Of a stretch of DNA of 64,000 nt, positions 11,216 to 58,112 are shown piece after piece. The notes beneath the pieces were generated by a model, which was not told where the DNA came from, did not search any database, and was given only the letters and a program-made list of their open reading frames with translations. Origin of the DNA: Actinomycetes bacterium (GTDB taxonomy: Bacteria > Actinomycetota > Actinomycetes > S36-B12). The DNA lies in assembly GCA_965278945.1 (NCBI GenBank), contig OZ257128.1, forward strand, positions 600,075 through 664,074. Direction: 5' to 3'. The first letter of the stretch is position 1; the number at the start of each line of letters is the position of its first letter. The position numbers and the translations under genes are program-made.

Positions 11216-11224
11216 GGTGCGTCC

Positions 11225-12151
11225 ATGACGGTGCTGGTAACCGGGGGCGCCGGCTTCATCGGGAGCAACCTCGTGCGTGCGCTGTCCGCGCGTGGTGACG
11301 AGGTGCGCGTCCTCGATGACCTGTCCACCGGGCTCGTCTCGAATCTCGCTGGCATCGACGTCGCTGCGGCCGAGGGATCGATCACGGACCCCGCAGCCGT
11401 TCAGATGGCGATGGACGGAGTGACGTCGGTCGTGCACCTCGCCGCCCGCGGTTCCGTGCCGCGGTCCGTCGCCGATCCGATCGGCAACCACTCGGCAAAC
11501 GACACGGGCACCCTCAACGTGCTCGAGGCAGCCCGCGCCGTCGGGGCGCATGTGGTCTTCTCGTCGTCCTCGTCGGTCTATGGCGTGAACACCGAGCTGC
11601 CCAAGCGCGAGGAGATGTGGACCCAGCCGATGTCTCCTTACGGCGCCAGCAAGCTGGCCGCCGAGTCGTACCTCATGGCGTACCGGGATGTGTATGGCCT
11701 GAGCGCGCTCGCGCTGCGCTTCTTCAACGTCTACGGGCCGTGGCAGCGACCCGACCATGACTACGCGGCGGCCATCCCGCGGTTCGCCGGGGCCGCACTG
11801 AACGATCAGCAGATCTCGGTGCACGGAGACGGGGAGCAGACGCGCGACTTCACGCATGTCGATGCCGTCGTGCGCGTGCTCATCGACGCGGTCGATCGGC
11901 GGGTCTCCTGGGACCGGCCGGTGAACCTCGCCTTCGGTGACCGCATCAGCATCAACGACGTCGTCACCGAACTGTCCCGCCAGCTCGACCGACCGCTGGA
12001 CGTCGTCCACACCGATGCGCGCGCTGGCGACGTGCGGCACAGTCAGAACGATCCCTCGCTGCTGAAGCGCGTGTTCCCGACTGCCGAGCCGGTCGGCTTC
12101 GCCGACGGGATCGCCTCGACCCTCGGCTGGCTGGTCTCCACGCGTGCCTGA
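11225..12151 (+). CDS. NAD-dependent sugar epimerase (UDP-Glc/GlcNAc 4-epimerase-like)
   Basis: TGGAGFIGSN, SSSSVYG, YGASK, RFFNVYGP, GDGEQTRDF. Confidence 0.9.
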   Translation: MTVLVTGGAGFIGSNLVRALSARGDEVRVLDDLSTGLVSNLAGIDVAAAEGSITDPAAVQMAMDGVTSVVHLAARGSVPRSVADPIGNHSANDTGTLNVLEAARAVGAHVVFSSSSSVYGVNTELPKREEMWTQPMSPYGASKLAAESYLMAYRDVYGLSALALRFFNVYGPWQRPDHDYAAAIPRFAGAALNDQQISVHGDGEQTRDFTHVDAVVRVLIDAVDRRVSWDRPVNLAFGDRISINDVVTELSRQLDRPLDVVHTDARAGDVRHSQNDPSLLKRVFPTAEPVGFADGIASTLGWLVSTRA

Positions 12152-12431: not shown

Positions 12432-12461
12432 CCCACCTCCCAAACCCCCGCAAACCCGGTC

Positions 12462-12480
12462 GTTGAGTGGTGAGTTGTCG
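12462..12480. repeat. REP-like hairpin family A, left arm (interrupted by IS30)
   Basis: gttgagtggtgagttgtcg is the exact reverse complement of 13785-13803. Confidence 0.85.
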
Positions 12481-12493
12481 CGCGATCGCTGCG

Positions 12494-13771
12494 GGCAGGT
12501 TCAATCGGTGAGTGCAACGCCTGAGTGGTGGAGGCGTTGTGGCTGGTTCGGATCGGTATTACTCGTGGGAGCGGCGTAGGCCGTTCTTCGACGCGATTGC
12601 CCATGGTGCGTCGTTTCTGGAGGCGGTCGCGGTGGTGGGCGCGGCGGGGTCGGCGTGCCAGAAGTGGTGGCGGCAGTCTTCGGGCATGCAATTGACGTTG
12701 GGGGTGCGCGGGGGCTTGAGGATTGTTCCTGGCGGGGATGGGTTTGTCGGGGACAAGTTGACGGCGCTGGAGCGCGATCAGATCGGCACGGGTCTGGCGG
12801 CGGGCTTGTCGCAGGCGGCGATCGCGCGTGTGATCGGGCGTAGCGCGTCGACGGTGTCGCGGGAGGTCCGCCGTAATGCCGGGCCGGATGGGACGTATTA
12901 CGGGTCGCTGGCGCACGTGAAGGCGTTCCAGCGGGCTCGCCGGCCCAAGGGTTTCAAGCTGGATGGGCGCGCGGATCTGATCGCGGCCATCACCGGCTGG
13001 CTCGATGATGGGTGGAGTCCGCGGCTGATCGCCCTCGTGCTGGCCGAGCAGGGCGGCGGGGACAAGACTGCACGGGTGTCGCACGAGACGATCTACCAGT
13101 CCCTTTACGTGCAGGCGCGCGGGCATCTGCGCGCGGACCTGCATCGGGCCTTGTCCACGGGCCGTGCCCGGCGCCGATCACGGACCGCGACCCGACGTGG
13201 TCCCAGTCCGTTCTCCGATGCCCTGACGATCTCCCAGCGACCCTCCGAGGTCGATGACCGCGCCGTGCCAGGTCATTGGGAGGGCGACTTGATCCTGGGC
13301 ACCGGATGCGCCTCGGCGATCGGGACCCTGGTCGAGCGGTCGACCAGGTTCACGATCCTGCTGCACCTGCCGATCGATCACACCGCGGAGGAAGTCGCCA
13401 AGGCGATGATCACAGCGATGGGCGACCTGCCCGAGCACCTGCGCCGCTCGATCACCTGGGACCGCGGAAGCGAGCTGGCCCGCTGGCGCGACATCCAGAT
13501 CGCCCTGGACACGCAGTTGTTCTTCTGCGACCCGCACTCACCCTGGCAGCGTGGCAGCAACGAGAACACCAACCGGCTGCTACGGCACTGGTTCACCAAG
13601 GGCACCGACCTGTCCGTCCACGACGTCACCGAGCTACGCCGCGTGCAGGACAAACTCAACTCCAGACCACGCCCTACCCTTGGACTGAAGACCCCCGCCC
13701 AAGCACTCGCGGAATACCTCGAGCAGCAGGCGGCCTAGACAACCGCGTTGCACTCACCGATTGACATCGCC
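12494..13771 (+). mobile_element. IS30-family insertion sequence (type 1)
   Basis: Perfect 20-bp inverted repeats at 12501-12520 and 13745-13764, extendable imperfectly to 12494/13771; flanking GCG direct repeat at 12491-93 and 13772-74. Confidence 0.9.
12512..13738 (+). CDS. IS30-family transposase
   Basis: HTH STVSREVRRN, VSHETIYQ, GHWEGDLI, TWDRGSE, PWQRGSNENTN; true start may be slightly downstream. Confidence 0.95.
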   Translation: MQRLSGGGVVAGSDRYYSWERRRPFFDAIAHGASFLEAVAVVGAAGSACQKWWRQSSGMQLTLGVRGGLRIVPGGDGFVGDKLTALERDQIGTGLAAGLSQAAIARVIGRSASTVSREVRRNAGPDGTYYGSLAHVKAFQRARRPKGFKLDGRADLIAAITGWLDDGWSPRLIALVLAEQGGGDKTARVSHETIYQSLYVQARGHLRADLHRALSTGRARRRSRTATRRGPSPFSDALTISQRPSEVDDRAVPGHWEGDLILGTGCASAIGTLVERSTRFTILLHLPIDHTAEEVAKAMITAMGDLPEHLRRSITWDRGSELARWRDIQIALDTQLFFCDPHSPWQRGSNENTNRLLRHWFTKGTDLSVHDVTELRRVQDKLNSRPRPTLGLKTPAQALAEYLEQQAA

Positions 13772-13784
13772 GCGCGATCGGCGA

Positions 13785-13803
13785 CGACAACTCACCACTC
13801 AAC
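13785..13803. repeat. REP-like hairpin family A, right arm
   Basis: cgacaactcaccactcaac pairs with 12462-12480. Confidence 0.85.
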
Positions 13804-13812
13804 AAGGACGGG

Positions 13813-24905: not shown

Positions 24906-24924
24906 CCCACCCACCCACCCCCCG

Positions 24925-24938
24925 CGAGTGGGCAGTTG
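24925..24938. repeat. REP-like hairpin family A, left arm (interrupted)
   Basis: cgagtgggcagttg, identical to the arms at 31458, 33192 and 41313. Confidence 0.75.
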
Positions 24939-24955
24939 ATGCTGCATTTCCGGCG

Positions 24956-26216
24956 CTTGGGTTCAAGGGATCGATGCAACACCTGAGGTGAAGAGGTGTT
25001 GTGATGCTTGGTCCTCCGGGGTTGCCGCCAGCGGTGCGGCTCGGGTTTTGGCAGTGGGTGCGGTCGGGGTTGTCGGTCGCGGAGGCGGCTGCTGCGGCGG
25101 GCGTGTCCGAGCGCACGGGTGCGGGGTGGTTCGGTGAGGCTGGCGGAGTGATGCCTTCATCGGTGACGCCCGGCAAGGTCAGGCCTCGGTTGACGTTCGA
25201 TCAGCGTGAGGAGATCGCGGTCCTGCGTGGGTCGGGGGCGTCGAACGCGGAGATCGCGCGGGCGGTGGGCTGTCACCGGTCCACGATCGGGCGTGAGCTG
25301 GCGATGAACTCCACGTTCTTCGCCGACCGGCACCTGCCTAGGTATCGGGCGTCGATGGCGCAGAAGCGCTCCGACTGGCGGGCTCGCCGGCCGAAGGCGT
25401 CCGCGCTCAAGGCCAACGACCGGCTGCGGCAGGTGGTGCAAGATCACTTGGAGGACGAACTCAGCCCGGAGCAGATCTCAGGTCGGCTGAGGATCGATTT
25501 CCCTGATGATCCGGAGATGCGCGTGAGTCACGAGGCGATCTACCAGGCGTTGTTCGTCCAGGGCCGCGGCGCGTTGCGCCGTGACCTGCACCAACGGCTG
25601 CGCACGGGCCGGGCGATCCGCAAGACCCGGAGGACCGCAGGTGAGCGCCGTGGCCGGATCCCGGGGATGGTCTCCATCACCGAGCGCCCGCCCGAGGTCG
25701 CCGACCGTGCTGTTCCTGGCCATTGGGAGGGCGACCTGATCGTGGGGAAGAACTCCGGCTCGGCGATCGGGACCTTGGTCGAGCGGGCAACCGGGTTCTG
25801 CCTGCTGCTGCACCTTCCCGGCAACCACGGCGCGGACGCGGTAGCCGACGCGATGATCACCGCGATGAGCCAGCTGCCGGCGACCTTGCGACGCACGCTG
25901 ACCTGGGACCAGGGATCGGAGATGGCCAACCACGTCCAGATCGCCGCAGCCACGGACCTGGACATCTACTTCTGCGATCCCCACTCACCATGGCAGCGCG
26001 GATCCAACGAGAACACCAACGGCCTGCTGCGTCAGTACTTCGCCAAAGGCTCCGACCTGTCGGTCTATGCCCCGGACTATCTCGAGCACGTCAGCCGAAA
26101 ACTGAACAACCGGCCACGCAAACGCCACGGCTTCAAGACACCAGCCGAAATGCTCGACCACCTACTGTCAGAACCGGTCAATCCAACCGATGTTGCATCC
26201 ACCGCTTGAATCCACC
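24956..26216 (+). mobile_element. IS30-family insertion sequence (type 2, copy 1)
   Basis: 1261 bp shared with 41344-42604; imperfect ttcaag..gatgcaac terminal inverted repeats; no clean target-site duplication seen. Confidence 0.9.
25001..26209 (+). CDS. IS30-family transposase
   Basis: VSHEAIYQ, GHWEGDLI, TWDQGSEM, PWQRGSNENTNG. Confidence 0.95.
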   Translation: MMLGPPGLPPAVRLGFWQWVRSGLSVAEAAAAAGVSERTGAGWFGEAGGVMPSSVTPGKVRPRLTFDQREEIAVLRGSGASNAEIARAVGCHRSTIGRELAMNSTFFADRHLPRYRASMAQKRSDWRARRPKASALKANDRLRQVVQDHLEDELSPEQISGRLRIDFPDDPEMRVSHEAIYQALFVQGRGALRRDLHQRLRTGRAIRKTRRTAGERRGRIPGMVSITERPPEVADRAVPGHWEGDLIVGKNSGSAIGTLVERATGFCLLLHLPGNHGADAVADAMITAMSQLPATLRRTLTWDQGSEMANHVQIAAATDLDIYFCDPHSPWQRGSNENTNGLLRQYFAKGSDLSVYAPDYLEHVSRKLNNRPRKRHGFKTPAEMLDHLLSEPVNPTDVASTA

Positions 26217-26232
26217 TCGATTTCGGCCGCGA

Positions 26233-26246
26233 CAACTCACCACTCG
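26233..26246. repeat. REP-like hairpin family A, right arm (variant)
   Basis: caactcaccactcg, matching the variant arm seen at 13785-13803. Confidence 0.7.
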
Positions 26247-31428: not shown

Positions 31429-31457
31429 CCCCGCCCCGTTCCGCCCCAGACCCCCCG

Positions 31458-31515
31458 CGAGTGGGCAGTTGTCGGGGTCGAAACCGCAGGTTTCACCCCG
31501 ACAACTGCCCACTCG
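31458..31515. repeat. Intact REP-like hairpin family A (possible terminator)
   Basis: cgagtgggcagttgtcgggg..gaaacc-gca-ggtttc..ccccgacaactgcccactcg, between convergent genes. Confidence 0.9.
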
Positions 31516-32107
31516 GGTGGGCGTTCAGCTCCCAGTACTCGATGTCGACGTACGACGTCAGTCCGGGCATCTTCAGCCGGTACCGGTACTCGCCGTCGCA
31601 CCACGACTGGTTCGCGCAATAGGGGTCGATCGGGATGATCGCGGTGCCGTCCGCGTCTGGACGGGCGACCCACTCGGCATTCCACTCGCCCTCCTGCTCG
31701 AACTCCAGGTACAGCAGTCCGGCCTGATCCGGCCCAACGTTGACCTTCATCGTCGGCAATCGCTTCCCGCTCGCATACGTACTCGACTCGAAGACCCGGT
31801 CGAGGTCGGTGCCGGTGTCGCTCCATTTCCAGTCGAGCTCGCCGGCCGCAGCCCTCTTGCCTTCGGAGAGCTGCTTCTTGTCAGCGGTGCCAATGTTTGA
31901 GGCCGCGACAACGAGAGTGGTGGGGAGGATGACGGCGATCAAAGTTGCTGCGAGAGTCGCGCCGATAGTTACCAGCGGACGGCTGCGGTACGAGAGCCGG
32001 ACGGCCCGCTCCGGGTTGCTCCACCGGCGCACTCGGTTGCCCTCTGCGTCGTAGTCCTTCGATCGTCTGAGGGGATGGTCGGGACTTCGACGTTCGTGCG
32101 TATTCAT
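31493..32107 (-). CDS. Hypothetical membrane-anchored/secreted protein
   Basis: Hydrophobic segment followed by a beta-rich domain with a Cys pair; stop codon lies inside the hairpin. Confidence 0.55.
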   Translation of the reverse strand: MNTHERRSPDHPLRRSKDYDAEGNRVRRWSNPERAVRLSYRSRPLVTIGATLAATLIAVILPTTLVVAASNIGTADKKQLSEGKRAAAGELDWKWSDTGTDLDRVFESSTYASGKRLPTMKVNVGPDQAGLLYLEFEQEGEWNAEWVARPDADGTAIIPIDPYCANQSWCDGEYRYRLKMPGLTSYVDIEYWELNAHPSGQLSG

Positions 32108-32228
32108 TTGTGGACGTCCAGACCGGCATGGTTCGCGAACGAGCGCGGATCTTGAAAGTAACCCTGATTCGCCGTTCTGAACCAGTTTGGCTCCAAACCG
32201 TTACGTGCCGCCGATTACGACCCTGGGG

Positions 32229-33098
32229 TCAACGACGAGTGAACGCGGCGTTCACCAGATCGACCATGCGCTCGGGGTTCTTCAGGTCCGCCGCGGTGAA
32301 CACGACGATCGTCCATCCCGCGGCCTGGAGCAGGTTACGTCGTAATGCATCTTTTCGACGTTGCTCCTCCGGGAGGTGCACGATTCCGTCGTACTCCGCG
32401 ATCACGCGTTCGCGCCGCCACACCAAGTCGGGACGGGCAAGCCACTCCCCGTTCTCAACGATGTTCACGTTGCACTCGGGCTTGGGCACTCTGCGAAGGA
32501 CGAGCACACAGCGCGCCTGCGATTCCCCCGGCGACTCTGAGTCCGGATCGAGGATCGGCAATGCCACCCGGGCCGACTTCACGCCTCGACGCCCGCGCGC
32601 CCAGCGGATGATCGAGTCGAGTTCAGCAGCCGTGGCGAGCCTCCTTCGAAATAGCACGTCACCCATCGCAACGAGATGCTCGATCGGTACGAGCTCGGCG
32701 CAGTCGATCCAGGTCCGCGCCGGAGTAGTGACTCGCCGACCTTCATGCACGACGAGGTGCCGCGCAGGGAGCTCCAATCGACGGCCGCGGACGCCATTCC
32801 TGCGTTGGCGGGAGCCTCCGCGGACAACGGCCACGCCGACCGCGCGATTCTCCAGTTCAAGGCCGATCCACGGCGGCAAGGGCAGTCCCCAATGCTGAGC
32901 AGCGGAGACGTCACAGAGAACGGAAACGTCTGCCTTGGTGAGTAGCGCGGCGTCAGTCAGCGCGTCGAGTCGGTCTGGTTCATCGACTCGGAATCGCACC
33001 CCTCGCGATGGTGCAACGAATCGAGGGCCCCGAAGCTCGTCCGGGGATAGTCCGGGTGCGCCAGCCGCAGTGACGAGGAATGCTGATCTCGGTTCCAT
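32229..33098 (-). CDS. AbiEi-like/DUF559 (Vsr-like PD-(D/E)xK) endonuclease-family protein
   Basis: TTPARTWIDC, ESPGESQAR, PDLVW..VIAEYDG..H, D..R.N.L...GW. Confidence 0.78.
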   Translation of the reverse strand: MEPRSAFLVTAAGAPGLSPDELRGPRFVAPSRGVRFRVDEPDRLDALTDAALLTKADVSVLCDVSAAQHWGLPLPPWIGLELENRAVGVAVVRGGSRQRRNGVRGRRLELPARHLVVHEGRRVTTPARTWIDCAELVPIEHLVAMGDVLFRRRLATAAELDSIIRWARGRRGVKSARVALPILDPDSESPGESQARCVLVLRRVPKPECNVNIVENGEWLARPDLVWRRERVIAEYDGIVHLPEEQRRKDALRRNLLQAAGWTIVVFTAADLKNPERMVDLVNAAFTRR

Positions 33099-33191
33099 CC
33101 TCGAATTGAGCCGCGACGGGGCCGTCGCGGCGAGGGCTCATCTGCGGCCTGTGGTGCTCCGGCGGAGGCTGTGGATACCCGGAACGCCGAT

Positions 33192-33248
33192 CGAGTGGGC
33201 AGTTGTCGGGCTGAAACCGCAGGTTTCACCCCGACAACTGCCCACTCG
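33192..33248. repeat. Intact REP-like hairpin family A
   Basis: cgagtgggcagttgtcggg.tgaaacc-gca-ggtttcaccccgacaactgcccactcg, nearly identical to 31458-31515. Confidence 0.9.
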
Positions 33249-41310: not shown

Positions 41311-41343
41311 CGCGAGTGGGCAGTTGGTGTCGTGAAAACAACC
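41311..41343. repeat. REP-like hairpin family A, left arm (interrupted)
   Basis: 33 bp, exact reverse complement of 42605-42637. Confidence 0.9.
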
Positions 41344-42604
41344 CTTGGGTTCAAGGGATCGATGCAACACCTGAGGTGAAGAGGTGTTGTGATGCTTGGT
41401 CCTCCGGGGTTGCCGCCAGCGGTGCGGCTCGGGTTTTGGCAGTGGGTGCGGTCGGGGTTGTCGGTCGCGGAGGCGGCTGCTGCGGCGGGCGTGTCCGAGC
41501 GCACGGGTGCGGGGTGGTTCGGTGAGGCTGGCGGAGTGATGCCTTCATCGGTGACGCCCGGCAAGGTCGGGCCTCGGTTGACGTTCGATCAGCGTGAGGA
41601 GATCGCGGTCCTGCGTGGGTCGGGGGCGTCGAACGCGGAGATCGCGCGGGCGGTGGGCTGTCACCGGTCCACGATCGGGCGTGAGCTGGCGATGAACTCC
41701 ACGTTCTTCGCCGACCGGCACCTGCCTAGGTATCGGGCGTCGATGGCGCAGAAGCGCTCCGACTGGCGGGCTCGCCGGCCGAAGGCGTCCGCGCTCAAGG
41801 CCAACGACCGGCTGCGGCAGGTGGTGCAAGATCACTTGGAGGACGAACTCAGCCCGGAGCAGATCTCAGGTCGGCTGAGGATCGATTTCCCTGATGATCC
41901 GGAGATGCGCGTGAGTCACGAGGCGATCTACCAGGCGTTGTTCGTCCAGGGCCGCGGCGCGTTGCGCCGTGACCTGCACCAACGGCTGCGCACGGGCCGG
42001 GCGATCCGCAAGACCCGGAGGACCGCAGGTGAGCGCCGTGGCCGGATCCCGGGGATGGTCTCCATCACCGAGCGCCCGCCCGAGGTCGCCGACCGTGCTG
42101 TTCCTGGCCATTGGGAGGGCGACCTGATCGTGGGGAAGAACTCCGGCTCGGCGATCGGGACCTTGGTCGAGCGGGCAACCGGGTTCTGCCTGCTGCTGCA
42201 CCTTCCCGGCAACCACGGCGCGGACGCGGTAGCCGACGCGATGATCACCGCGATGAGCCAGCTGCCGGCGACCTTGCGACGCACGCTGACCTGGGACCAG
42301 GGATCGGAGATGGCCAACCACGTCCAGATCGCCGCAGCCACGGACCTGGACATCTACTTCTGCGATCCCCACTCACCATGGCAGCGCGGATCCAACGAGA
42401 ACACCAACGGCCTGCTGCGTCAGTACTTCGCCAAAGGCTCCGACCTGTCGGTCTATGCCCCGGACTATCTCGAGCACGTCAGCCGAAAACTGAACAACCG
42501 GCCACGCAAACGCCACGGCTTCAAGACACCAGCCGAAATGCTCGACCACCTACTGTCAGAACCGGTCAATCCAACCGATGTTGCATCCACCGCTTGAATC
42601 CACC
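41344..42604 (+). mobile_element. IS30-family insertion sequence (type 2, copy 2)
   Basis: Near-identical to 24956-26216; one difference seen (A25181 vs G41569, R/G in the protein). Confidence 0.9.
41389..42597 (+). CDS. IS30-family transposase
   Basis: Same protein as 25001-26209 apart from one residue. Confidence 0.95.
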   Translation: MMLGPPGLPPAVRLGFWQWVRSGLSVAEAAAAAGVSERTGAGWFGEAGGVMPSSVTPGKVGPRLTFDQREEIAVLRGSGASNAEIARAVGCHRSTIGRELAMNSTFFADRHLPRYRASMAQKRSDWRARRPKASALKANDRLRQVVQDHLEDELSPEQISGRLRIDFPDDPEMRVSHEAIYQALFVQGRGALRRDLHQRLRTGRAIRKTRRTAGERRGRIPGMVSITERPPEVADRAVPGHWEGDLIVGKNSGSAIGTLVERATGFCLLLHLPGNHGADAVADAMITAMSQLPATLRRTLTWDQGSEMANHVQIAAATDLDIYFCDPHSPWQRGSNENTNGLLRQYFAKGSDLSVYAPDYLEHVSRKLNNRPRKRHGFKTPAEMLDHLLSEPVNPTDVASTA

Positions 42605-42637
42605 GGTTGTTTTCACGACACCAACTGCCCACTCGCG
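42605..42637. repeat. REP-like hairpin family A, right arm
   Basis: ggttgttttcacgacaccaactgcccactcgcg. Confidence 0.9.
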
Positions 42638-53177: not shown

Positions 53178-53227
53178 GGGGCAGGAGTCTATTTGGGCTC
53201 GTGAAGGGCCAGAACCACCCCGCACGC

Positions 53228-53294
53228 CCCGCCGACCTTGAGGTTGGCGTGGCTCTGACGTGGCGTTTCCCACGCCAACCTCAAGGTCGGCGGG
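53228..53294. repeat. REP-like hairpin family B
   Basis: Perfect 25-bp arms cccgccgaccttgaggttggcgtgg with a 17-nt loop. Confidence 0.88.
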
Positions 53295-53313
53295 CAGCGG
53301 CGGTTGGGCCGGA

Positions 53314-58049: not shown

Positions 58050-58112
58050 CGCCGACCTTGAGGTTGGCGTGGAAATCGGGTGGTCAAACCCACGCCAACC
58101 TCAAGGTCGGCG
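58050..58112. repeat. REP-like hairpin family B
   Basis: Perfect 23-bp arms identical to 53228-53294; different 17-nt loop. Confidence 0.88.

What the first reader, a model, noticed from the sequence alone, without database searches (positions are those of the whole stretch)
31458..33248. DUF559-like nuclease cassette bracketed by two intact, near-identical REP hairpins
Seen: a 1.8-kb block (hypothetical gene plus AbiEi/DUF559-like endonuclease gene) sits downstream of pilO, bounded on both sides by the only uninterrupted family-A hairpins, and looks less GC3-biased than the pil genes. Established: REP families in Proteobacteria are spread by an adjacent HUH enzyme (RAYT) flanked by its own REPs. 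Inference: this PD-(D/E)xK protein may be an analogous, non-HUH REP-associated mobiliser, or the cassette was captured by recombination between hairpins. This could be an undescribed class of mobile unit.
Basis: partly seen in the sequence, partly recalled or inferred. Interest (0 to 1): 0.65.

Follow-up and report, generated by a model that had tools for sequence, protein, structure and literature searches.

The report
Nuclease gene framed by own palindromes
A gene for a DNA-binding nuclease sits between two copies of a 58-letter DNA palindrome, and the same gene-plus-palindrome layout recurs across actinobacteria, which suggests an undescribed protein–repeat partnership laid out like REP/RAYT but using an unrelated enzyme.

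Summary
Two 57/58-nt palindromes (31458-31515, 33192-33248; 96.5% alike) frame a 204-aa membrane-protein gene and a 289-aa AbiEi-like/DUF559 (Vsr-fold) nuclease gene.

This layout is a family trait:
- 56 of 71 homologues with visible flanks have matching palindromes on both sides, against 0 of 567 control ORFs.
- They span Nanopelagicales-like MAGs, Cellulomonas, Arthrobacter, Microbacterium and Mycobacterium.
- Arms are conserved far above synonymous sites (0.62 vs 0.38); centres drift.
- Each paralogue or clade has its own arm sequence.

The units are old chromosomal residents. They fall into 15 synteny groups, and five groups hold both orientations.

At this pilO/ORF274 junction, relatives show:
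- the unit with different cargo;
- the unit alone;
- the unit flipped and decaying;
- a half-palindrome scar;
- nothing;
- an unrelated island, in the 95%-identical relative.

ORF204 is a passenger. Palindromes with these arms occur mostly as solos in metagenomes (about 33 of 36 contexts), and all three solos in the window carry an IS30.

My reading is that this is a cognate nuclease–palindrome recombining cassette.

The parts
33192..33248 (.). Upstream palindrome (hairpin R) of the unit. Its arms are CGAGTGGGCAGTTGTCGGG / CCCGACAACTGCCCACTCG. It ends 93 nt before the nuclease start codon.
   Evidence: The same position relative to the gene (about 90-100 nt before the start) is seen in homologous loci.
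33099..33191 (-). 93-nt spacer between the upstream palindrome and the start codon. It is presumed to hold the promoter and 5' UTR, but no sigma-70 consensus was found.
   Evidence: The spacer length of about 88-110 nt recurs in other loci.
32229..33098 (-). 289-aa nuclease gene. The N-terminal part is AbiEi-like. The C-terminal part (about residues 205-289) is a DUF559/Vsr-fold PD-(D/E)xK nuclease domain with D224, E235, D237 and H241 invariant.
   Evidence: Pfam; PADLOC; alignment; AlphaFold model with pLDDT 89.5; Foldseek hit to the I-Bth0305I catalytic domain, prob 1.0.
32108..32228 (.). 121-nt intergenic stretch at 58% GC between the nuclease gene and the passenger gene. It holds no remnant of a family-A arm.
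31493..32107 (-). Passenger gene ORF204, a single-pass membrane protein with no family hit. Its natural end (DIEYWDR* in relative L081) is replaced here by ...DIEYWELNAHPSGQLSG*, read from the palindrome arm.
   Evidence: L001 carries an unrelated 128-aa membrane ORF in the same slot.
31458..31515 (.). Downstream palindrome (hairpin L). With its outer C-run and G-run the stem extends to 31452-31521.
41311..42637 (.). Solo family-A palindrome with the same 14-nt outer arms and a different inner stem. An IS30-family element splits it exactly at the centre.
24922..26246 (.). Family-A site split by a second, near-identical IS30 copy. The left arm is the GGGCAGTTG type and the right arm the GGTGAGTTG type.
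12461..13804 (.). Solo palindrome of the related GTTGAGTGGTGAGTTG type, split by another IS30-family element. The coordinates are approximate.

Best explanation
The block is one copy of a widespread, apparently undescribed actinobacterial unit. The unit is a gene for a two-part protein, with an AbiEi-like DNA-binding part and a Vsr/DUF559-fold nuclease, framed by two direct copies of its own palindrome of about 58 nt.

Shown:
- The framing is specific to this gene family.
- The arms, 10-30 nt from the centre, are kept by selection and differ between paralogues.
- The centres drift but stay paired.
- Units sit at fixed chromosomal sites for long periods. Even so, between relatives they are found flipped, decayed, reduced to a single or half palindrome, absent, or carrying extra genes between the nuclease gene and a palindrome.
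- In this window the unit is an old resident of the pilO/ORF274 junction, and ORF204 is a passenger.

Inferred:
- The protein binds the arms as a homodimer and cuts in or near the palindrome.
- The break stimulates recombination between palindrome copies. This would keep the two flanking copies alike, invert the unit, delete it to a solo, and allow the unit or other DNA to be copied or captured at other palindromes (homing-like).
- The palindromes probably also serve as terminators or insulators.
For: - Family-wide framing: 56/71 homologues against 0/567 control ORFs carry a matching repeat upstream and downstream, Fisher p 7e-67.
- The upstream palindrome ends about 90-100 nt before the start codon. 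The stop codon often lies inside the downstream arm.
- Within pairs the arms are 78-87% identical and the centre 54%. 32 of 36 pairs are direct.
- Between orthologues the arms are 0.62 identical, against 0.38 at four-fold sites and 0.36 at the centre. For window against L001 the figures are 0.82 and 0.30, and the arm CGCGAGTGGGCAGTTG is identical 16/16.
- There are 15 synteny groups, and 5 of them hold both orientations.
- States at this junction: L001 has the unit plus other cargo; L085 has the unit alone; L084 and L087 have it flipped and interrupted (premature stop in L087); L083 has a half-arm scar; L082 and L090 are empty; L081 has another island.
- Solo palindromes occur.
- Catalytic residues are invariant. 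The fold matches the homing endonuclease I-Bth0305I, a homodimer that footprints about 60 bp (PMC3239194).
- DUF559 proteins are enriched among predicted inversion targets, OR 14.3 (PMC9881135).
Against: - No biochemical evidence shows that the protein binds or cuts the palindrome.
- Conserved arms and concerted change of the two copies could come from regulatory binding plus gene conversion, without any cutting.
- In the population that holds this genome there is no empty-site junction, and the cassette has the same depth as its flanks.
- Only about 2-3 further copies at least 80% alike were seen in that run.
- Units are mostly inherited vertically, with host-like composition (median GC3 deficit 0.03). 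They are nearly absent from plasmids.
- An earlier pre-set test in this scan, on another genome, went against the repeat depending on the gene.
Confidence: 0.55

Rival explanations
1. This is a static, self-regulated gene. The AbiEi-like part is a repressor that binds the two palindromes, acting as operator/insulator upstream and terminator downstream. The nuclease has an unrelated cellular role such as repair or defence. Solo palindromes are further operators or plain terminators. The variation between relatives is ordinary gene turnover.
For: AbiEi-type winged-helix domains are known autorepressors that bind inverted repeats (established knowledge). Units stay vertical and syntenic. Composition is host-like. 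No excision was seen in the population. The palindromes sit where terminators sit.
Against: The upstream palindrome ends about 93 nt before the start codon, which is far for an operator. Solos lie mostly at gene 3' ends (20 of 22 classifiable) and rarely between divergent genes (2 of 22), which is not where operators sit. Nested arm arrays, third palindromes that delimit cargo, flips confined to the unit, and half-palindrome scars all point to recombination at the palindromes.
Confidence: 0.17
2. This is a true REP/RAYT-like replicator. The nuclease actively multiplies and disperses solo palindromes through the genome, and the gene unit is the master copy.
For: The layout is the same as REPtrons: the gene is framed by its own repeats, each paralogue has its own repeat type, and inheritance is vertical. 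In a hairpin-first metagenome sample, only 3 of 58 loci with exact family-A arms have a DUF559 gene nearby, so solos dominate, and they lie in tight intergenic gaps. Nested arrays look like self-targeted insertion. One solo matches a unit elsewhere in the same MAG (L005 and L071).
Against: Copy number is low where it could be measured. About 13 solos were found in 1.3 Mb of flanks, and about 7-8 copies are known in this genome. A hydrolytic PD-(D/E)xK nuclease cannot transfer strands by itself. An earlier pre-set scatter and gene-dependence test on another genome failed.
Confidence: 0.15
3. This locus results from recent capture or allele replacement. The present nuclease gene plus ORF204 arrived by homologous exchange from a related lineage, using the palindromes or the flanking pil genes as crossover points. 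It was not inherited in place.
For: The closest relative, L081 (flanking proteins 95-98% identical), lacks the unit and has a 5.6-kb two-component/EAL/PAS island with only a 52%-identical ORF204 homologue. The GC3 deficit of this copy (0.70 against about 0.87) is larger than the family norm. Cellulomonas L072 shows a 53%-identical, flipped allele between flanks that are 85% identical.
Against: The same unit with the same arm sequence sits at the same junction in L001, L085, L084 and L087. Nuclease divergence (59-65%) is similar to that of the flanking proteins (57-75%). L081 may be the replaced state.
Confidence: 0.13

Closest known systems
REP/REPIN-RAYT units ('REPtrons') of Proteobacteria
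   Same: A single-copy, vertically inherited gene is framed by its own palindromic repeats. Each paralogue has its own repeat type. Solo repeats lie in short intergenic gaps at gene ends. Repeats cluster or nest.
   Different: The enzyme is a Vsr-fold PD-(D/E)xK hydrolase with an AbiEi-like domain, not an HUH Y1 transposase. There is no conserved GTAG-type tag. Copy numbers seen here are low (units to tens, not hundreds). The host phylum is Actinomycetota.
I-Bth0305I / 'EDxHD' Vsr-like homing endonucleases (PMC3239194)
   Same: The catalytic fold is the best real PDB match (3r3p_B, prob 1.0, TMt 0.67). The architecture is multidomain. The known enzyme is a homodimer that footprints about 60 bp on a pseudopalindromic target, which is the size of these palindromes. 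The unit is present or absent at one and the same site between relatives.
   Different: The gene is not inside an intron or intein. It lies between two intact copies of the putative target rather than disrupting it. It is chromosomal and long-lived rather than phage-borne. Cleavage has not been tested.
AbiEi antitoxin of the AbiE (type IV TA / abortive infection) system
   Same: The N-terminal and middle region resemble AbiEi (PADLOC E 6.6e-6; PF09407 in homologues). AbiEi binds inverted repeats.
   Different: There is no AbiEii nucleotidyltransferase partner gene. The domain is fused to a nuclease. The repeats frame the gene instead of lying in its promoter.
Integron gene cassettes with attC sites
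   Same: Genes are separated by imperfect palindromes of about 60 nt that have conserved outer boxes and variable but paired centres. The palindromes lie in direct orientation. Arrays of palindrome-delimited cargo occur (L084, L020).
   Different: No integrase was seen in or beside the units. The order of the core motifs is the reverse of attC. The conserved gene is the nuclease itself.
BoxC / PIT repeats next to short DUF559 genes such as E. coli ycjD
   Same: A DUF559 nuclease domain lies next to GC-rich inverted repeats.
   Different: Those proteins have about 120 aa and no AbiEi-like part. In K-12 I saw BoxC-like repeats only on the 3' side of ycjD and a different 17-bp palindrome at its 5' end, so there is no clean bracket.

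Membership tests
DUF559 (PF04480) / Vsr-like PD-(D/E)xK nucleases | Profile match above the curated cut-off | tested here: met
   27.4 bits against a cut-off of 20.6, residues 224-282
DUF559 (PF04480) / Vsr-like PD-(D/E)xK nucleases | Catalytic acidic and histidine residues kept | tested here: met
   D224, E235, D237, H241, D250, R253, R254 and N255 are invariant in 22 sequences
DUF559 (PF04480) / Vsr-like PD-(D/E)xK nucleases | Vsr-type fold of the domain | tested here: met
   Model pLDDT is 89.5. The best real PDB hit is the I-Bth0305I catalytic domain, prob 1.0, TMt 0.67.
AbiE toxin-antitoxin system | AbiEi-like DNA-binding protein | tested here: met
   PADLOC AbiEi E 6.6e-6, residues 43-169; PF09407 in homologues
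AbiE toxin-antitoxin system | Adjacent AbiEii (DUF1814 nucleotidyltransferase) toxin gene | tested here: not met
   The neighbours ORF204, ORF274 and pilO have no such hit
REP-RAYT (REPtron) | Gene framed by its cognate palindromic repeats | tested here: met
REP-RAYT (REPtron) | Enzyme is an HUH Y1 (IS200/IS605-like) transposase | tested here: not met
   The protein has the Vsr/DUF559 fold and gives no transposase hit
REP-RAYT (REPtron) | Many dispersed solo repeats of the same type in the same genome, dependent on the gene | tested here: inconclusive
   There are 3 solos in the window and about 2-3 more in the run. Metagenome solos are common. An earlier check elsewhere was negative.
Homing endonuclease gene | Occupied and empty alleles of the same site among relatives | tested here: met
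   Occupied: window, L001, L085, L084, L087. Empty or scarred: L082, L083, L090.
Homing endonuclease gene | The enzyme cleaves the empty site | not testable with these tools
   This needs a biochemical assay
Insertion sequence / transposon | Transposase (DDE, HUH or serine/tyrosine recombinase) plus target-site duplication | tested here: not met
   No transposase family hit. No short duplication outside the palindromes.
Integron cassette | IntI integrase and attI next to the array | not tested
   Only the four ORFs around the unit were scanned against profiles. None is a recombinase.

The most novel reading that the evidence does not exclude
AbiEi-like/Vsr-fold nucleases are the missing enzyme partner of an actinobacterial class of REP-like palindromes. 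Each paralogue reads the arms of its own palindrome, cuts it, and by break-induced recombination copies itself, cargo genes and solo palindromes into other palindromes. This would be a new class of selfish or domesticated DNA element built on a hydrolytic nuclease rather than a transposase or recombinase.
Probability: 0.25. Interest if true: 0.85.

Novelty: new variant of a known kind. Interest (0 to 1): 0.6.

Why it matters
The family is large: 11,040 representatives at 50% clustering, with several paralogues per genome. It has no assigned function, and I found no paper that links it to repeats.

If the protein acts on its framing palindromes, three things would follow:
- It would explain an orphan class of long GC-rich palindromes in actinobacterial intergenic regions.
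- It would add a second, mechanistically different solution to the REP/RAYT theme.
- It would explain why these sites are hot spots for inversion, gene loss, cargo capture and IS30 insertion, here inside a type IV pilus locus.

Each paralogue with its own 14-20-bp arm would also be a natural set of programmable sequence-reading modules. The claim can be tested directly with one purified protein and one 58-bp oligonucleotide.

Tried and rejected
No census of palindromes or paralogues in the window's own genome was possible.
- Exact-protein look-ups of the window's nuclease and its two in-genome paralogues (P0002, P0021, P0077) found nothing. Whether those paralogues are framed remains unknown. 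Laying Logan contigs at 80% likeness did not recover them either.
- I first thought the two hairpins were one ancestral element split by the insertion, because the outer C-run and G-run mirror each other. I rejected this. Hairpin L has both runs, solos and other units often carry such runs, and the unit is orthologous in distant relatives.
- I considered that ORF204 is part of the unit and rejected it. Typical units have no second gene, L001 has an unrelated ORF in that slot, and L081 has an ORF204 homologue without the unit.
- attC/integron: GTTGAGT fits GTTRRRY, but the motif order is reversed, the window's arm is CGCGAGT, and no integrase was seen.
- Rfam gave only sub-threshold hairpin look-alikes (miRNA families, Ms_IGR-8).
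- Sequence search of the PDB found nothing significant.
- No RNA runs exist for this organism.
- No sigma-70-like promoter or T-tailed terminator was found at the palindromes.
- A literature search for the arm sequence returned only chance primer matches.
Full report
**1. The observation**

The window is 67% G+C and carries a type IV pilus cluster.

They lie in the same orientation and are 96.5% identical.
- Each folds into a stem of about 27 bp, far more stable than shuffles (z -6 to -8).
- The 19-nt arm occurs five times in the window against 0.01 expected.
- No other complete copy exists in the window.
- Three further sites carry the same or a sister outer arm (CGAGTGGGCAGTTG or GAGTGGTGAGTTG). 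Each is split exactly at its centre by a 1.28-kb IS30-family element (NCBIfam transpos_IS30, E 6.5e-85).
- Between the hairpins lie ORF 31493-32107(-), 204 aa and one membrane span, with no family hit, and ORF 32229-33098(-), 289 aa. The latter hits Pfam DUF559 above its cut-off in residues 224-282 and PADLOC AbiEi in residues 43-169.
- GC3 is 0.70 for the nuclease gene and 0.815 for ORF204, against 0.84-0.92 for the neighbours.
- The last eight codons and the stop of ORF204 are read from the arm of hairpin L.

**2. The protein**

- Twenty-two homologues align over their full length. D224, E235, D237, H241, D250, R253, R254 and N255 are invariant, so the nuclease site is intact.
- An AlphaFold model has mean pLDDT 89.5.
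- Its best meaningful PDB match is the catalytic domain of the homing endonuclease I-Bth0305I (3r3p_B, probability 1.0, TM 0.67 on the target). That enzyme is a multidomain homodimer that footprints about 60 bp on a pseudopalindromic target (PMC3239194).
- A sequence search of the PDB found nothing significant.
- The family is large: 11,040 cluster representatives at E <= 1e-3, most of them 290-310 aa.
- The window's own genome is a 3.65-Mb contig. It holds at least two paralogues, P0021 (55% identical) and the truncated P0077 (75% identical). I could not fetch them.

**3. The framing is a property of the gene family**

I fetched 80 loci that encode homologues, 29-65% identical, from one genome per species. 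In most of them a pair of 55-75-nt palindromes brackets the gene.

- The upstream palindrome ends about 90-100 nt before the start codon.
- The downstream palindrome begins between 17 nt before and 40 nt after the end of the stop codon. In many loci the TGA stop lies inside the arm motif GTTGAGTGG.
- With the same test applied to other ORFs of the same loci, 56 of 71 nuclease genes and 0 of 567 control ORFs have a matching repeat on both sides (Fisher p 7e-67).
- The background density of comparable hairpins is 0.19 per kb.
- The trait reaches Cellulomonas, Arthrobacter, Pseudarthrobacter, Microbacterium, Mycobacterium and Streptomyces.
- Arm sequences are quite different between clades: GAGTGG-type, GATGATCAAGGAA-type, CCCAACTAGGTAGC-type and others. 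They also differ between paralogues of one MAG.

**4. What is conserved in the palindromes**

- Within a pair, identity is 78-87% at 10-30 nt from the centre. It is 54% in the central 10 nt and falls again beyond 30 nt. Thirty-two of 36 pairs are direct copies.
- Between orthologous loci the arms are on average 0.62 identical (ungapped comparison), against 0.38 at four-fold degenerate sites of the adjacent gene and 0.36 at the palindrome centre.
- For window against L001 the figures are 0.82 and 0.30. For L011 against L035 they are 0.95 and 0.40.
- So the arms are kept by selection, while the centres only keep pairing.

**5. Long residence with local rearrangement**

- Sixty-three of 81 loci fall into 15 synteny groups, so the units are mostly inherited in place. 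In five groups the unit occurs in both orientations between the same flanking genes.
- The nuclease is a little less conserved than its neighbours (median -6 identity points).
- In Cellulomonas L072 it is 53% identical and flipped, between flanks that are 85% identical.
- Composition is host-like (median GC3 deficit 0.03), so the window's deficit of about 0.17 is unusually large.
- Plasmids hold almost none: five weak hits, all on very large replicons.
- A published screen lists DUF559 proteins as enriched among predicted inversion targets (odds ratio 14.3; PMC9881135). That fits genes framed by palindromes.

**6. This locus in relatives**

| Locus | Identity to the window | State of the pilO/ORF274 junction |
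|---|---|---|
| L001 | flanking proteins 57-75% | pilO, palindrome, nuclease (65%), an unrelated 128-aa four-span ORF, palindrome, ORF274. The arm CGCGAGTGGGCAGTTG is identical 16/16. |
| L085/L086 | ORF274 60% | Palindrome and nuclease directly next to ORF274, no cargo |
| L084 | ORF274 73% | Opposite orientation; nuclease reading frame broken (two frames); upstream palindrome reduced to one arm abutting the ORF274 stop; a further pair of near-identical palindromes brackets 2.5 kb of glycosyltransferase cargo |
| L087-L089 | ORF274 70% | Opposite orientation. A CGA/TGA nonsense polymorphism segregates: L087 and L088 carry TGA, L089 carries CGA. |
| L083 | ORF274 73% | 25-nt gap that holds only a half-arm scar (ACTACCCACTCGCGG) |
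| L090 | ORF274 74% | Empty |
| L082 | ORF274 71% | An unrelated perfect 82-nt palindrome |
| L081 | flanking proteins 95-98% | Neither unit nor palindrome. It has a 5.6-kb two-component/EAL/PAS island with a 52%-identical ORF204 homologue that ends ...DIEYWDR*, where the window's copy runs on into the palindrome. |

Three conclusions follow. The nuclease-palindrome unit is old at this junction. ORF204 is a passenger or a resident of the variable island. The junction turns over by events that begin and end at palindromes.

In the runs that hold this genome, Logan contigs break at the palindromes. The cassette has the same depth as its flanks, and no empty-site junction appears.

**7. Solo palindromes**

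- In the 1.3 Mb of flanks, 13 of 154 other hairpins resemble nuclease-framing palindromes. Eight of these are in the same locus or the same MAG.
- In run X8 only two further contigs carry a palindrome at least 80% like this one.
- A hairpin-first scan of metagenome contigs for the exact family-A arms gave 58 loci, 36 of them distinct contexts. Only three have a DUF559 gene nearby.
- The rest are solos in tight intergenic gaps. Among the classifiable ones, ten lie between convergent genes, ten between tandem genes and two between divergent genes.
- Soil contigs show nested arrays of the form arm-arm...arm'-arm'.
- So the arm motif is widespread as solos, but copy number per genome appears modest.

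**8. Interpretation**

I consider the following shown:
- the pairing of gene and palindrome is specific;
- the arms are under selection and specific to each paralogue;
- rearrangements (flip, loss to a solo or half palindrome, cargo gain) are confined to the palindrome-bounded segment.

The mechanism I think most likely is inferred, not shown. The protein, as a dimer about the size of the I-Bth0305I footprint, reads the arms and cuts the palindrome, and break-stimulated recombination between copies produces these outcomes.

The rivals are:
- a purely regulatory role for the palindromes;
- a full REP/RAYT-like replicator;
- recent allele replacement at this locus.

Earlier notes of this scan describe the same cassette in many genomes. 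They also report that a pre-set test on another genome went against the repeat depending on the gene.

**9. Novelty**

- Twenty-five papers in the library mention DUF559, and none links it to flanking repeats.
- Searches for the arm sequence and for Vsr-like homing enzymes with palindromes found only I-Bth0305I.
- The closest known layout is the REPtron, but its defining enzyme class is not met here.
- I file this as a new variant of a known kind. It is one more well-documented member of a cassette class this scan has flagged repeatedly. Its added value is an unusually complete series of states at one orthologous junction.

Noticed in passing
window about 12461-13804, 24922-26246, 41311-42637: All three solo family-A palindromes in the window are occupied by IS30-family elements inserted exactly at the palindrome centre. 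The two palindromes that frame the nuclease gene are unoccupied. IS30 seems to use these palindromes as preferred targets.
   Followed up: partly
window 53225-53297 and 58050-58112: A second palindrome family has arms CGCCGACCTTGAGGTTGGCGTGG and 17-nt loops of unrelated sequence. I did not test whether it belongs to another nuclease paralogue.
   Followed up: no
L096, L100, L102, L117, L119 and other soil metagenome loci: The 14-nt arm motif CGAGTGGGCAGTTG occurs two or three times in tandem on each side of one hairpin, giving nested palindromes. It looks as if one minimal palindrome had been inserted into the centre of another.
   Followed up: partly
L084 4698-4777 and 7211-7290: Two near-identical family-A palindromes in direct orientation bracket 2.5 kb of cargo (a glycosyltransferase and small ORFs) with no nuclease gene between them. 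They lie next to a decaying nuclease unit, so the region reads as an array of palindrome-delimited segments.
   Followed up: partly
L087 about 7138, L088 about 5900, L089 about 2089: Three samples of one study differ at one codon of the nuclease gene, CGA (Arg) against TGA (stop). A nonsense allele therefore segregates in that population.
   Followed up: partly
L081 5359-10900: The closest relative (95-98% identical flanking proteins) has a 5.6-kb island with a response regulator, a HisKA_3 kinase, an EAL protein and a PAS protein in place of the nuclease unit. The pilO/ORF274 junction is a replacement hot spot.
   Followed up: partly
L082 6820-6901: A perfect 33-bp-stem palindrome of unrelated sequence (CCCCCGCCGACACGACCCAGAACGCCGTGAAGC...) occupies the otherwise empty junction in another relative.
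   Followed up: no
L035 10862-10867, L011, L023, L031, L034, L036 and others: The TGA stop codon of the nuclease gene lies inside the conserved arm motif GTTGAGTGG of the downstream palindrome. Gene end and repeat are therefore physically fused.
   Followed up: partly
L062 against L072 (Cellulomonas): At one orthologous site the flanks are 85% identical, but the nuclease is only 53% identical and flipped. This suggests replacement by a different allele at the same palindrome-bounded slot.
   Followed up: no
L149 (E. coli K-12) 11217-11802: ycjD, a short DUF559 gene, has BoxC-like GC-rich inverted repeats and a duplicated fragment of its 3' end on its downstream side. A different perfect 17-bp palindrome lies over its start. 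It is not a clean two-sided bracket.
   Followed up: partly
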